From: an uncultured Gammaproteobacteria bacterium
GTDB lineage: Bacteria; Patescibacteriota; Patescibacteriia; UBA9934; GWF2-40-263
NCBI GenBank assembly: GCA_964402425.1
Contig: CAYOCD010000001.1
Location: forward strand, 82,934-146,933
Reading direction: 5' to 3'
DNA: 64,000 nucleotides
The notes beneath the pieces were generated by a model. The model saw only the letters and a program-made list of their open reading frames with translations. It was not told where the DNA came from and searched no databases. A program made the position numbers and the translations under genes. Positions 54,101-57,714 of this stretch are shown here, in pieces; the first letter of the stretch is position 1, and each line of letters opens with the position of its first letter.

Positions 54101-54816
54101 ACATGAAATGCGGCGTTTGGTGCAAAACAAGACAAAGATTCATTTGGAGTCGGACATTTTTCTTCTGGCGTGAACATGACTTTTCTGCCAGAAAACGTAA
54201 AAGACCCGGGAACATCCACCCCGTCTCTTGTGATCTTTATTCCCTTTTCATCTTTCACGGATTTTGAAAAAACAAGGGATAATTTAAGGTTACGAACACC
54301 CGCAGCACATTGGATAATGGACGTTGGCGGATTTAATGAGAATACAGGAGTTGGTGACGGAAACGGTGAAGTTTTTAAACAAGATAGATCTGTAGGATTT
54401 TTTTTACAAAACGCAATAATATCTGCATTCGATGTTGCTCCCACCAACTTTGAAATGACGAATTGTGCAATCGCAAACGATGACAAAACAATCACAAGAC
54501 CGATTAAACCGTTTTTAATGGAGTTCTTTGCTTTTTTGAGACGATCTTCGTTTCCACCCGCCGTCATGTACATGAATCCTCCGTACAGAACAATCATGAC
54601 CGCAATAATTCCAAGAAACGAAATGACTGTGCGAATCAAACGCGCAATAATGACGGTAATGGAAGGCCCTGTTGAAAACCCCGCGTTGGCCGCAAAAGAA
54701 GCAAACGCATCTGGATCTACAGGACTTGCAGCGAGGATTGGTTGAGCAAAAAAGATTCCCGTGCAAAGGAGAACGGTTAGAATAAACATCGATTGAAGCA
54801 ATCTGCGGAGGTTCAT
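45163..54816 (-). CDS. Giant (3217 aa) cysteine-rich cell-surface protein. N-terminal signal peptide plus two-helix membrane hairpin domain, SbsA-type Ig-like / beta-rich regions, and at least 10 Myxococcus-type cysteine-rich repeats (CGNGxxxxGExCDDGNxxxGDGCSxxC).
   Basis: Single uninterrupted ORF. N-terminus [31 protein letters not shown]...[66 protein letters not shown]. Repeats such as [62 protein letters not shown] and [14 protein letters not shown]. Confidence 0.7.
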   Translation of the reverse strand: [3217 protein letters not shown]

Positions 54817-54826
54817 GTAAAAAAGA

Positions 54827-56809: not shown

Positions 56810-56946
56810 GAGTAAGGCTATAAAGGCAATAGAGGCTTGAGATGCCGAAGGGAACAAAAAAAAGAACGCGGTCAACGCGTTCTTTATTTTCTTGTTTCTT
56901 TTTTTCGGCATCTCAAGCCTCTCCAGCATCTCTCGCCTCTCTAGCT
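56810..56946. repeat. GA-rich palindromic element H: 16-bp perfect inverted repeat GAGGCTTGAGATGCCG/CGGCATCTCAAGCCTC plus CTCTCGCCTCTC arm. Loop carries the hairpin GAACGCGGTCAACGCGTTC. Abuts the stop of the yqeY-fusion gene.
   Basis: Seen in sequence between 56737 and 56941. Confidence 0.7.
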
Positions 56947-57714
56947 TATCTGATTCAATACCGCCGTTGTGACAAAAAACAACGCCACAACAACTCCCAT
57001 ATTCATAAATCCACCCATGATTTTCTGTTCCGCTTTATCTCTTACAACATCTCGTGCGGACCCAACAGTCATTTCAATCCCACCACGAATAATTTCAATG
57101 ATAGAAAAAAGTCCGGCGAACAAGAACATGACACGCACAAGACGAATCCCCATTTCAAGATATGGCAAATACGAATAGGTTCCGAATTCTGGCAATGTTA
57201 TCATGCCGATTTCCGCATGCGCAGAAGAGACGACTATCGTATTTACCAAAACAGCAAAGATAAACACTCCAAGCAACTTCTCAACGAGTCCTTTCACACG
57301 TGTACCGTCAGCACGCCCTGCAACGGCCTTCATGACAAATCCCATCGCCTTGCCCATGTCCGCTTTTGATGCAGCTCCCGATTGCAAAACAGCTTCACGA
57401 ACCACCATTTCAAGATCGGCATCAGACAATTCTGCTGGCATGTATTTTTTTAACACTTCAAGCTCAAGTTTATTCCCTTCTGCAAGATCGGCTCGTCCGC
57501 CAGCCTCAAACTGATCAATCGCTTCTTTCAATTGTTTTGCCTGAGACTTAATCACATCCGATACCTCCGCATCCGTAAGCGGACGCATAAGATCAATCTC
57601 TTTATTTTTAAGAGCAGACTTAAGCATGCGAAGTGTGGAAAGTGTTGATTCGTCTTTTGCACGCATGGCGTCTTTAAGGTCTGAACCGATTTGTTCAAGA
57701 AGAGTCATAGACAA
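56941..57714 (-). CDS. yqeY: GatB/YqeY-domain protein (N-terminal 150 aa) fused in frame to a C-terminal signal-peptide-like segment plus a third copy of the two-helix hairpin domain. Possibly two genes sharing a frame (internal GTG start).
   Basis: YqeY pattern LKDAMRAKDESTLSTLRMLKSALKNKEIDL...LTDAEVSDVIKSQAKQLKEAIDQFEAGGRADLAEGNKLELEVLKKYMP. The tail LLGVFIFAVLVNTIVVSSAHAEIG...IRLVRVMFLFAGLFSIIEIIRGGIEMTVGSARDVVRDKAEQKIMGGFMNMGVVVALFFV aligns with the N-termini of 54827..56737 and 45163..54816. Confidence 0.6.
   Translation of the reverse strand: MSMTLLEQIGSDLKDAMRAKDESTLSTLRMLKSALKNKEIDLMRPLTDAEVSDVIKSQAKQLKEAIDQFEAGGRADLAEGNKLELEVLKKYMPAELSDADLEMVVREAVLQSGAASKADMGKAMGFVMKAVAGRADGTRVKGLVEKLLGVFIFAVLVNTIVVSSAHAEIGMITLPEFGTYSYLPYLEMGIRLVRVMFLFAGLFSIIEIIRGGIEMTVGSARDVVRDKAEQKIMGGFMNMGVVVALFFVTTAVLNQIS

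What the first reader, a model, noticed from the sequence alone, without database searches (positions are those of the whole stretch)
54427..57265. Three copies of a novel two-helix membrane hairpin domain (VirB2/TrbC-pilin-like topology), heading giant surface proteins and fused to YqeY
A module of about 70 aa recurs three times within 3 kb with clear sequence identity (I.R.IR.V....G.....L....GG...MT.G......KA...I..G.....V.VL): signal peptide, hydrophobic helix, a short polar loop containing GG..MT.G, a KAK-rich turn, then a second hydrophobic helix. It forms the N-terminus of the 3217-aa and 636-aa proteins. It also forms the C-terminal 110 aa of the YqeY ORF, where it is preceded by its own signal-like segment ...VVSSAHA|EIG and a possible internal GTG start. 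The topology is that of VirB2/TrbC conjugative pilins, but no T4SS genes are present. The domain could be a membrane anchor or a polymerising pilin-like module that displays giant adhesins.
Basis: partly seen in the sequence, partly recalled or inferred. Interest (0 to 1): 0.8.

Follow-up and report, generated by a model that had tools for sequence, protein, structure and literature searches.

The report
Known pilin module heading giant proteins
The three repeats are real, but they are copies of a known VirB2-like "T4SS pilin" membrane hairpin (Pfam PF18895) that is very common in ultra-small Patescibacteria; what appears undescribed in the papers searched is its use here as the head of a conserved pair of large surface proteins and as a probably cleavable tail on the cytoplasmic protein YqeY.

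Summary
Observation confirmed, "novel domain" not. Copies 1 (3217-aa protein) and 2 (636-aa protein) score above Pfam's threshold for PF18895 T4SS_pilin and are 47% identical (E 3e-25). Copy 3, the YqeY tail, misses Pfam on its own. Its family profile matches the pilin profile (hhalign 98.8%, E 1e-16) and finds both other copies in the window (E 9e-17, 4e-12). There is no fourth copy.

PF18895 is published as the VirB2-like pilin of Patescibacteria and has about 86,000 clusters at 50% identity. The apparently undescribed part is the architecture. The order rpsU – yqeY – ~600-750-aa pilin-headed Ig-like protein – 1,900-3,550-aa pilin-headed giant – TSP3 proteins – ybeY – ftsA/ftsZ recurs in about 35 species genomes. 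The hairpin is about twice as conserved as the passengers (54% vs 27%).

The YqeY–pilin fusion is in-frame in more than 100 clusters of an Uhrbacteria clade. Its signal-peptidase site is invariant (−1 Ala 104/104), so cleavage is inferred.

Most likely the hairpin is a Sec-inserted, peptidase-processed membrane base that displays the passengers outside the cell. Incorporation into a pilus is untested, and no T4SS gene lies in the window. This is a new variant of a known kind, of moderate interest.

The parts
45163..54816 (-). Gene for the 3217-aa giant surface protein: N-terminal PF18895 pilin module, then TIG/IPT, Big_5 and Cys-rich DUF4215 repeats
   Evidence: ORF. Pfam hits PF18895 28.5 bits (cut-off 26.6), TIG, Big_5 and DUF4215. 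Orthologues in 35 loci.
54730..54816 (-). Copy 1 signal peptide (aa 1-29, ending PILA|A)
   Evidence: Sequence. AlphaFold helix 3-23. Aligns with the signal peptides of small pilins. The cleavage site is inferred.
54445..54657 (-). Copy 1 pilin core (aa 54-124): helix 1, [19 protein letters not shown] loop, helix 2
   Evidence: PF18895 35.5 bits on the N-terminal 150 aa. Local HMM 103.6 bits. AlphaFold helices 53-85 and 90-129 with pLDDT 89-96.
54827..56737 (-). Gene for the 636-aa protein: pilin module, flexible linker, Ig-like (Big_5) beta domains; it ends 10 bp before the giant gene starts
   Evidence: ORF. PF18895 32.6 bits and Big_5 49.9 bits. AlphaFold model with pLDDT 80 and pTM 0.71. 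More than 120 homologous clusters of 600-660 aa.
56624..56737 (-). Copy 2 signal peptide (aa 1-38, ending GVFA|A)
   Evidence: Sequence. Ala38 is invariant in 44 homologues. The cleavage site is inferred.
56357..56563 (-). Copy 2 pilin core (aa 59-127)
   Evidence: PF18895 36.1 bits. Local HMM 79.9 bits. AlphaFold helices 56-88 and 93-132.
56861..56885 (-). Terminator-like hairpin (10-bp stem plus T-run) between yqeY-pilin and the 636-aa gene
   Evidence: sequence. This is a consensus match only.
56941..57714 (-). 257-aa YqeY-pilin fusion ORF
   Evidence: ORF. PF09424 YqeY 154.7 bits over aa 7-148. The fusion is conserved in more than 100 clusters.
57271..57714 (-). YqeY domain (aa 1-148); cytoplasmic placement is inferred from the absence of an N-terminal signal peptide
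   Evidence: full-length match to the profile, positions 2-143 of 143.
57214..57294 (-). Internal signal-like segment (aa 141-167, KGLVEKLLGVFIFAVLVNTIVVSSAHA) with a signal-peptidase I motif
   Evidence: In 104 homologues, position -1 is Ala in 104/104 and position -3 is A72/V26/T4/I2, while the flanking positions vary.
56944..57213 (-). Copy 3: predicted mature pilin (aa 168-257); core from aa 190 (56944-57147)
   Evidence: hhalign 98.8%, E 1.3e-16 against pilins. Six of 33 family members hit PF18895 on their own, best E 3.2e-6. A pilin-core HMM (built from A4) gives E 6.6e-4.
57765..58007 (-). rpsU (ribosomal protein S21), conserved upstream neighbour of the locus
   Evidence: Pfam hit. Present in 36 of the related loci.
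42657..45158 (-). Three small TSP3-repeat proteins (331, 210 and 267 aa), recurrent downstream neighbours of the giant gene
   Evidence: Pfam PF18884. Homologues follow the giant gene in L005, L039, L046 and L066.

Best explanation
The three segments are paralogous copies of the known Patescibacteria VirB2-like pilin module (Pfam PF18895). The module has a Sec-type signal sequence ending in a signal-peptidase I site. A short acidic segment follows, then a two-helix membrane hairpin. The connecting loop ([12 protein letters not shown]...KKAK) is basic and therefore probably cytoplasmic. This puts both ends of the mature module outside the cell.

In the 636-aa and 3217-aa proteins the module is the N-terminal base. 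It anchors a flexible linker and a long Ig-like and Cys-rich passenger on the cell surface. The two genes form a conserved tandem pair inside a housekeeping neighbourhood (rpsU-yqeY ... ybeY-dagK-ftsA-ftsZ) across Uhr-, Magasanik- and Falkowbacteria-type lineages. The hairpin is conserved about twice as well as the passengers. It therefore probably makes specific contacts, either with other PF18895 hairpins or with their assembly machinery, and is more than a passive anchor.

In an Uhrbacteria clade the same module has been fused in-frame behind cytoplasmic YqeY. The last YqeY helix plus a hydrophobic stretch serve as an internal signal sequence. Signal peptidase I most likely cuts after AHA(167), releasing a ~90-aa mature pilin and leaving YqeY tethered to the membrane.

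Shown here: homology, domain order, conservation of the locus, the fusion and the cleavage motif. Inferred: topology, cleavage and surface display.
For: Family assignment: PF18895 is above its cut-off for copies 1 and 2. Copy 3 joins at profile level.

Structure: AlphaFold gives a confident helical hairpin, pLDDT 89-96 for copy 1. For the 636-aa protein it gives hairpin, low-confidence linker 133-150, then beta domains. The best Foldseek match of those domains is the S-layer protein SbsC, E 1e-9.

Topology: the mature N-terminal segments have no K or R, while the loops have 4-5 K/R (sequences). This fits the positive-inside rule (established knowledge).

Locus: the S21 - [YqeY] - ~600-750-aa - giant order recurs in about 35 GTDB species loci and in three further Uhrbacteria contigs.

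Conservation: median core identity is 54% against passenger HSP identity of 27.5% for 32 giant orthologues, and 48.6% against 27.3% for 32 orthologues of the 636-aa protein.

YqeY fusion: more than 100 clusters at 39-92% identity and 98-99% coverage. Position -1 is Ala in 104/104 and position -3 is A, V, T or I.

The module tolerates passengers at either end: there is also a class with a signal peptide, a Cys-rich N-terminal passenger and a C-terminal pilin.
Against: There is no experimental evidence for any PF18895 protein's topology, processing or assembly in this lineage. Foldseek of the isolated hairpin against the PDB gave no hit at E <= 0.001 and no T4SS pilin among the top 50. A profile search of PDB sequences also found nothing. 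Copy 3 itself fails Pfam's threshold. Some of the high core identity comes from transmembrane composition. Translocating about 3,100 residues downstream of a hairpin is assumed, not shown. Cleavage of the YqeY fusion rests only on motif conservation, and the fate of YqeY is unknown.
Confidence: 0.7

Rival explanations
1. Modular polymerising pilins. The hairpins of the 636-aa and giant proteins are extracted from the membrane by a T4SS (VirB4/VirB6) encoded elsewhere in the genome. They are built into a VirB2-like pilus as minor or tip subunits, so the pilus carries giant adhesins. The YqeY-linked copy supplies a further pilin subunit.
For: The pilin core is more conserved than the passengers and carries the same motif as the small pilins. 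Small-pilin arrays are essential and linked to a T4SS in Southlakia (PMC10633639; PMC12857230). No PrgB-like adhesin was found in Patescibacteria T4SS loci, so an adhesin is 'missing' (PMC12102498). In VirB2/F-type pili both termini face outward (established knowledge), so a C-terminal passenger would be exposed. The 945-aa LVIVD protein at 60570-63407, which lies in this window's type IV pilus cluster, may be an analogous pilin-headed protein (its pseudopilin-like N-terminus is read by eye, with no N_methyl Pfam hit).
Against: No VirB4, VirB6 or VirD4 family was found in any ORF of the window that was scanned. The pair sits in a housekeeping locus, not a T4SS locus, in all ~35 related loci. 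Small-pilin arrays in L013 and L020 are also flanked by housekeeping genes. A 3,000-aa passenger on each subunit is sterically incompatible with a major-pilin role. Chains of 6-17 covalently linked hairpins exist, which argues for membrane-resident arrays. No VirB2-type pilus has yet been imaged in these bacteria: the cited review speaks only of a 'potential to elaborate conjugative pili'.
Confidence: 0.2
2. The hairpin is only an export and retention device that is removed. After insertion, a second cleavage behind helix 2, in the disordered linker, releases the Ig-like and Cys-rich passengers as free S-layer or secreted proteins.
For: A low-confidence linker follows the hairpin (aa 133-150 of the 636-aa protein). 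The best structural match of the passenger is an S-layer protein (SbsC, E 1e-9; EA1 weaker). The locus is housekeeping-like and widely conserved.
Against: No conserved cleavage motif was looked for or seen after helix 2. Strong conservation of the whole hairpin, including its cytoplasmic loop, is more than a disposable leader would need.
Confidence: 0.1
3. The YqeY-linked copy is translated on its own from an internal start, as a nested in-frame gene, so that free YqeY-fusion and free pre-pilin are both made. Alternatively the fusion is an artefact of a lost stop codon.
For: GTG at Val140 precedes a segment that would be a good stand-alone signal peptide. A conserved ATG (MKAV...) lies 13 codons further upstream.
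Against: The GTG is GTA in L083, and the Val and Met are conserved YqeY residues in any case. No Shine-Dalgarno-like sequence was seen by eye upstream of either codon, although the start of the 636-aa gene lacks one too. The open in-frame junction is kept in more than 100 clusters down to 39% identity, so the fusion protein is made and is under selection. An artefact is excluded.
Confidence: 0.1
4. The three segments are merely generic hydrophobic helices with chance similarity.
For: Copy 3 against copy 2 is not significant by BLASTP. Copy 3 has no Pfam hit.
Against: Copy 1 against copy 2 gives E 3e-25. The profile-profile comparison gives E 1.3e-16. Cross-hits in the window give E 9e-17 and 4e-12, with no other ORF hit. 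The GGFxYMTxxG...AKK motif is shared.
Confidence: 0.01

Closest known systems
Pfam PF18895 T4SS_pilin: the VirB2-like pilins of Patescibacteria (pilin arrays of Southlakia epibionticum and Nanosynbacter lyticus TM7x)
   Same: The domain is the same: signal peptide, two hydrophobic helices and the GGFxWMTAGGNE...AKK loop. Scores are above the family cut-off for copies 1 and 2, and 40-60% core identity to small pilins is common. The paralogues are adjacent, as in the published arrays of 2-11 genes.
   Different: Published members are small proteins of about 120-170 aa, often next to virB4. Here the module heads proteins of 636 and 3217 aa and tails YqeY, in a housekeeping locus with no T4SS gene in 64 kb. 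I found no paper in the searched library that mentions these architectures.
TrbC/VirB2 conjugative pilins (PF04956; Agrobacterium VirB2, RP4 TrbC, F TraA)
   Same: Long leader, signal-peptidase processing, and a two-helix hairpin with a basic loop and both termini outside (established knowledge). There are weak sub-threshold Pfam hits of 17.0 and 21.1 bits.
   Different: The scores are below the gathering score of 27.9. No similarity to solved pilins was found by sequence or by Foldseek. No cyclisation or acetylation machinery and no T4SS genes are seen. The host is reported to be a monoderm (PMC12857230).
Modular type IV pilins (for example Streptococcus sanguinis PilB/PilC, recalled from memory) and pseudopilin-headed large proteins
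   Same: The same design principle: a small filament or membrane module fused to a large functional module that ends up exposed. The window's own 945-aa LVIVD protein, which sits in the type IV pilus cluster, looks like an example (its pseudopilin-like N-terminus is read by eye, with no N_methyl Pfam hit).
   Different: The pilin fold is unrelated (a single N-terminal helix with a class III signal) and so is the machinery (PilB/PilC/PilD). The resemblance is an analogy only and was not tested here.
NCBIfam NF045849, Mbov_0395 family pilin-like conjugal transfer protein (Mycoplasma ICE)
   Same: Copy 1 reaches the model cut-off (42.6 against 40 bits). Copy 2 scores 32.2 bits. The hairpin is the same.
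   Different: That family consists of ~80-aa ICE proteins. The proteins here are chromosomal, giant, and not in a mobile element. The 'equivalog' label cannot be transferred.
Membrane-anchored S-layer or Ig-like adhesins (for example SbsC)
   Same: The passenger of the 636-aa protein is a string of Ig-like domains whose best PDB match is SbsC domains 1-6 (E 1e-9).
   Different: TM-scores are low (0.13-0.15) and reflect only shared Ig-like repeats. Known S-layer proteins attach through SLH or cell-wall-binding domains, not through a VirB2-like hairpin.

Membership tests
Pfam PF18895 T4SS_pilin | Score at or above the gathering threshold (26.6 bits) | tested here: met
   Copy 1 scores 35.5 bits (N-terminal 150 aa) and 28.5 bits (whole protein). 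Copy 2 scores 36.1 and 32.6 bits.
Pfam PF18895 T4SS_pilin | The same threshold, applied to copy 3 (YqeY tail) | tested here: inconclusive
   The window sequence has no Pfam hit. However, 6 of 33 family members hit PF18895 (best E 3.2e-6), hhalign gives 98.8% and E 1.3e-16, and the reciprocal HMM hits are E 9e-17 and 4e-12. Copy 3 is a divergent member by profile evidence.
Pfam PF18895 T4SS_pilin | Architecture: signal peptide, then two hydrophobic helices joined by a short basic loop | tested here: met
   AlphaFold helices 3-23, 53-85 and 90-129 and 11-30, 56-88 and 93-132. The loops carry 4-5 K/R.
Pfam PF04956 TrbC/VirB2 | Score at or above the gathering threshold (27.9 bits) | tested here: not met
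   17.0 bits (E 0.0072) and 21.1 bits (E 0.00038); no hit for copy 3.
Functional T4SS (conjugative-type) pilin | Encoded with, or dependent on, a T4SS (VirB4 ATPase, VirB6, VirB3) | tested here: not met
   No such family appears in any scanned ORF of the 64-kb window or next to the orthologous pairs. The rest of the genome could not be examined.
Functional T4SS (conjugative-type) pilin | Polymerises into an extracellular filament | not testable with these tools
   No multimer prediction or experiment was available.
Functional T4SS (conjugative-type) pilin | Structural similarity to solved VirB2/TraA pilins | tested here: inconclusive
   Foldseek against the PDB gave no hit at E <= 0.001. A profile search of PDB sequences gave nothing. 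Helical hairpins are too simple for this test to decide.
Signal-peptidase I substrate (all three copies) | Hydrophobic h-region followed by small residues at positions -3 and -1 | tested here: met
   YqeY fusions: position -1 is Ala in 104/104; position -3 is A72/V26/T4/I2. Ala38 of the 636-aa protein is invariant in 44 sequences. Cleavage itself was not tested.
Pfam PF09424 YqeY | Full-length match above the gathering threshold (27 bits) | tested here: met
   154.7 bits; aa 7-148 match profile positions 2-143 of 143.
NCBIfam NF045849 Mbov_0395 pilin-like conjugal transfer protein | Score at or above 40 bits and equivalog context (small ICE protein) | tested here: inconclusive
   Copy 1 scores 42.6 bits and copy 2 scores 32.2 bits. 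The context requirement (ICE, ~80 aa) is not met.

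The most novel reading that the evidence does not exclude
The PF18895 'pilin' hairpin may be a general, portable surface-display and assembly module of Patescibacteria, not simply the subunit of a conjugative-type pilus. It can carry passengers at either end, form covalent chains of 6-17 hairpins, and be launched from a cytoplasmic protein (YqeY) acting as a ~167-aa cleavable leader. 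On this reading, the conserved 600-aa plus giant pair would be the missing host-contact adhesins that dock into the same hairpin assembly as the essential small pilins. The 'T4SS pilin arrays' would then need re-interpretation as components of a membrane or filament scaffold that is often independent of the T4SS.
Probability: 0.2. Interest if true: 0.7.

Novelty: new variant of a known kind. Interest (0 to 1): 0.45.

Why it matters
Small VirB2-like pilins are among the few envelope components shown to be essential for the epibiotic life of a cultivated Patescibacterium (PMC10633639). What they build is unknown. The same module heads a syntenic pair of large surface proteins in about 35 species genomes (38 loci in all). 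It is often unlinked to T4SS genes, and it tolerates passengers at both ends. Together these give concrete handles for experiments: which proteins sit on the structure, and whether the domain is really a pilus subunit or a membrane scaffold. HMM-based censuses of "VirB2 homologues" in Patescibacteria may also include giant multidomain proteins, so such counts may need stratifying by protein length. The YqeY–pilin fusion, with its invariant peptidase site, would be an unusual case of a whole folded cytoplasmic domain serving as the leader of a membrane protein. It also gives a physical link between YqeY, whose function is poorly understood, and the cell envelope.

Tried and rejected
1. Pairwise BLASTP of copy 3 against copy 2 was not significant. 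The relation had to be shown with profiles.

2. Pfam on the isolated YqeY tail (88-129 aa) gave only a spurious MFS_MOT1 hit.

3. A profile of the pilin alignment against PDB sequences gave one chance hit, to a light-harvesting beta subunit, E 0.72.

4. Foldseek of the AlphaFold hairpin against the PDB found nothing at E <= 0.001 and no T4SS pilin. This is uninformative for a two-helix hairpin.

A trimmed core alignment worked.

6. The internal-start hypothesis was checked. The GTG is not conserved at codon level and no Shine-Dalgarno-like sequence was seen by eye. The neighbouring genuine start also lacks one, so the ribosome-binding-site argument is inconclusive.

7. I looked for T4SS genes next to small-pilin arrays of the same lineage (L013, L020) and found only housekeeping genes.

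8. I looked for conservation of the adjacent type IV pilus genes next to the pair in other genomes and found none at E 1e-5. That adjacency is therefore probably incidental.

9. Literature searches for PF18895, T4SS_pilin, VirB2 with CPR, Uhrbacteria with pilin, YqeY with Patescibacteria, and giant or surface proteins with CPR found the small-pilin papers. None described pilin-headed giant proteins or YqeY fusions. The library does not cover most subscription journals, so this absence is not proof.

Full report
WHAT IS IN THE WINDOW. All the genes of interest lie on the minus strand. In order they are:
- rpsU (57765-58007);
- a 257-aa ORF (56941-57714);
- a terminator-like hairpin (56861-56885);
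- a 636-aa ORF (54827-56737);
- 10 bp later, a 3217-aa ORF (45163-54816);
- three small TSP3-repeat proteins, then ybeY, dagK, ftsA, ftsZ, nrdR, an HtrA-like protease and pyruvate kinase.

Upstream of rpsU lies a type IV pilus cluster (T4P, not T4SS) with N-methyl pseudopilins and PilM. The composition (GC about 0.43), the gene content and the names that sources attach to the closest homologues (Candidatus Uhrbacteria) place the window in Patescibacteria/CPR.

CHECKING THE OBSERVATION. The N-terminal ~130 aa of the two large proteins are clearly homologous: 47% identity over 92 aa, E 3e-25. The YqeY ORF has a complete YqeY domain (aa 7-148, 154.7 bits) followed by 109 extra residues. That tail matches copy 1 weakly (27% identity, E 2e-6) and does not match copy 2 pairwise.

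I therefore collected the tail's own family. The whole 257-aa architecture recurs in more than 100 clusters at 39-92% identity with 98-99% coverage. An alignment of 33 tails (A2) was compared with an alignment of 38 pilins (A3). hhalign gave probability 98.8% and E 1.3e-16 over 75 columns. Six of the 33 tails hit the Pfam pilin model on their own. An HMM of the tails, run on every stop-to-stop ORF of the window, found only the giant (E 9e-17) and the 636-aa protein (E 4e-12). No HMM found a fourth copy.

WHAT THE DOMAIN IS. It is not novel. Copies 1 and 2 exceed the gathering score of Pfam PF18895 'T4SS_pilin' (35.5 and 36.1 bits against 26.6). They give sub-threshold hits to PF04956 TrbC/VirB2 (17.0 and 21.1 bits against 27.9). 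Copy 1 also reaches the cut-off of NCBIfam NF045849, the Mycoplasma-ICE pilin-like protein.

PF18895 is one of the profiles used by Quinonero-Coronel et al. 2025 to report VirB2-like pilins in 1,948 Patescibacteria assemblies, including arrays of 2-11 genes (PMC12102498). The array in Southlakia epibionticum is essential (PMC10633639; review PMC12857230). In a library of 1.84 billion representatives, the pilin profile finds 86,142 clusters at E <= 0.001 and 34,423 at E <= 1e-10. The word 'novel' was not.

ANATOMY AND TOPOLOGY. AlphaFold on copy 1 with 38 homologues gives a signal-peptide helix (3-23), a short helix (35-44) and a hairpin (53-85 and 90-129) with pLDDT 89-96. For the 636-aa protein it gives the same hairpin (56-88, 93-132), a low-confidence linker (133-150) and then well-predicted beta domains (pLDDT around 90; pTM 0.71). 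The best PDB match of those domains is the S-layer protein SbsC (E 1e-9), followed by other Ig-like arrays.

In all three copies the segment between the signal sequence and helix 1 has no Lys or Arg, while the inter-helix loop has 4-5. By the positive-inside rule the loop is cytoplasmic and both ends of the mature module are outside, as in VirB2-type pilins (established knowledge; an inference here). The passengers of the two large proteins are therefore extracellular. The giant carries TIG/IPT, Big_5 and Cys-rich DUF4215 repeats. Orthologues also show VWA hits.

THE LOCUS IS CONSERVED. A scan of one genome per GTDB species with the WMTAGGNE motif returned 80 loci. A local HMM then found 337 complete pilin-domain ORFs in them. 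Of these, 243 are under 200 aa, 42 are 200-399 aa, 40 are 400-999 aa and 12 are 1,000 aa or more. Many further giants run off the locus end.

In about 35 loci (Uhr-, Magasanik- and Falkowbacteria among others) the order is S21 – [YqeY] – a 600-750-aa pilin-headed protein – a 1,900-3,500-aa pilin-headed giant. Where the sequence continues, TSP3 proteins, ybeY, dagK, ftsA and ftsZ follow. Three more Uhrbacteria contigs show the same order, with the public pipelines' precomputed PF18895, Big_5, TIG and VWA hits on the two large proteins. Homologues of the 636-aa protein form more than 120 clusters of 600-660 aa. NCBI names them only 'Ig-like domain-containing protein' or 'hypothetical protein'.

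Across orthologues the pilin core is far better conserved than the rest. Median identity is 54% against 27.5% for the giant, and 48.6% against 27.3% for the 636-aa protein. The passenger figure is computed over aligned HSPs only and is therefore an upper bound. No T4SS family was found in any scanned window ORF or beside the orthologous pairs. Two small-pilin arrays of the same lineages are also flanked by housekeeping genes.

THE YqeY FUSION. In most lineages YqeY at this position is a plain 146-154-aa protein, and no small pilin gene sits between it and the next gene. The pilin tail is confined to an Uhrbacteria clade: the window, L003, L081-L083 and the clusters.

The junction is a hydrophobic stretch ending in a signal-peptidase I motif. 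Over 104 homologues, position -1 is Ala in all 104 and position -3 is Ala (72), Val (26), Thr (4) or Ile (2). Positions -5, -4, -2 and +1 to +3 vary freely. I infer that the last YqeY helix plus this stretch act as an internal signal sequence. Cleavage after Ala167 would then release a ~90-aa mature pilin. Long leaders are typical of conjugative propilins (established knowledge); here the leader would contain a whole folded domain.

Independent initiation cannot be excluded but is not what is conserved. A terminator-like hairpin separates this gene from the 636-aa gene.

MECHANISM, AND HOW SURE. Best supported (0.7): the module is a Sec-inserted, signal-peptidase-processed two-helix membrane base that displays passengers on the cell surface. 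Its strong conservation suggests specific contacts with other PF18895 hairpins or their assembly factors.

The more exciting reading is that these are modular pilins incorporated into a VirB2-like pilus as adhesin-bearing subunits. I give it about 0.2. In its favour are the core conservation and the reported absence of PrgB-like adhesins. Against it are the lack of T4SS linkage, steric considerations, and the existence of single chains with 6-17 hairpins.

Release of the passenger by a second cleavage (0.1) and separate translation of copy 3 (0.1) remain possible. Chance similarity is excluded.

NOVELTY. The domain and its small-protein form are already known. I did not find any description, in the papers I could search, of three things: its use as the head of a syntenic pair of large or giant surface proteins in a housekeeping locus; its acceptance of passengers at either end; and its fusion behind YqeY with an invariant cleavage site. 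The Pfam hits themselves are already present in public precomputed annotation. I rate this a new variant of a known kind, with moderate interest.

Noticed in passing
window 14000-24000: A 10-kb stretch has GC 0.52-0.59 against about 0.43 elsewhere. Its large minus-strand ORFs (13987-16425, 16520-18148, 19998-20963) carry 3-6 MopE-type Cys-rich 'Cu-binding' motifs (PF11617), and one has a Somatomedin_B domain. It may be a foreign island, or the GC may reflect repeat-protein composition.
   Followed up: no
proteins P0282 (552 aa), P0288 (1775 aa), P0290 (234 aa); L020:10943-11731, L021:2437-3276: Many PF18895 proteins are single chains of 2-17 tandem pilin hairpins ('poly-pilins'). They have one N-terminal signal peptide and no extra transmembrane segment between units, which is topologically consistent with both-ends-out units.
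   Followed up: partly
L028, L035, L043, L045, L047, L048, L051, L054, L056, L067, L070, L071 (ORFs listed): A further architecture: signal peptide, a 150-350-aa Cys-rich extracellular domain, then a C-terminal pilin hairpin. Such genes often occur several in a row. The module therefore also carries N-terminal passengers.
   Followed up: partly
L013:9281-12453 (Candidatus Uhrbacteria), L020:9827-12125: Arrays of 7 and 5 small pilin genes are flanked by NusA, H+-pyrophosphatase, trigger factor, a class A PBP, GyrA and a solute-binding protein, not by VirB4 or VirB6.
   Followed up: partly
window 58120-63921 (minus strand): A type IV pilus cluster contains three N-methyl pseudopilins (176, 173 and 178 aa), PilM (331 aa) and a 945-aa LVIVD/beta-propeller protein. 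The N-terminus of the 945-aa protein (…GESMIEIILITGLFAVIG…) looks pseudopilin-like by eye; it has no N_methyl Pfam hit. If that reading holds, it is a modular type IV pilin in the same window. The adjacency to rpsU is not conserved in other genomes.
   Followed up: partly
L081:7461-8090, L082:7517-8137, L083:7591-8199: In three Uhrbacteria loci a signal peptidase I gene (Peptidase_S26) lies two genes upstream of rpsU, just before hisS, close to the YqeY-pilin gene whose cleavage it would perform. In the window this position is taken by the type IV pilus cluster.
   Followed up: no
window 42657-45158 (minus strand): Three small proteins (331, 210 and 267 aa) with bacterial thrombospondin type-3 (calcium-binding) repeats follow the giant gene. 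Homologues follow it in L005, L039, L046 and L066 too. They may be partners of the giant protein.
   Followed up: partly
window 28698-29088 (minus) and 30394-30894 (minus): tmRNA (114.6 bits) lies about 1.3 kb from smpB, and a tRNA lies at 34167-34241. These are ordinary.
   Followed up: no
record titles of L001, L004, L006 and many others: Many loci with Patescibacteria-type gene content, including the pilin-headed pair, come from MAGs whose record titles say 'uncultured Gammaproteobacteria bacterium'. One is titled Chlamydiae (L037). One protein cluster is named Chloroflexi (P0243). These are probably mislabelled records.
   Followed up: no
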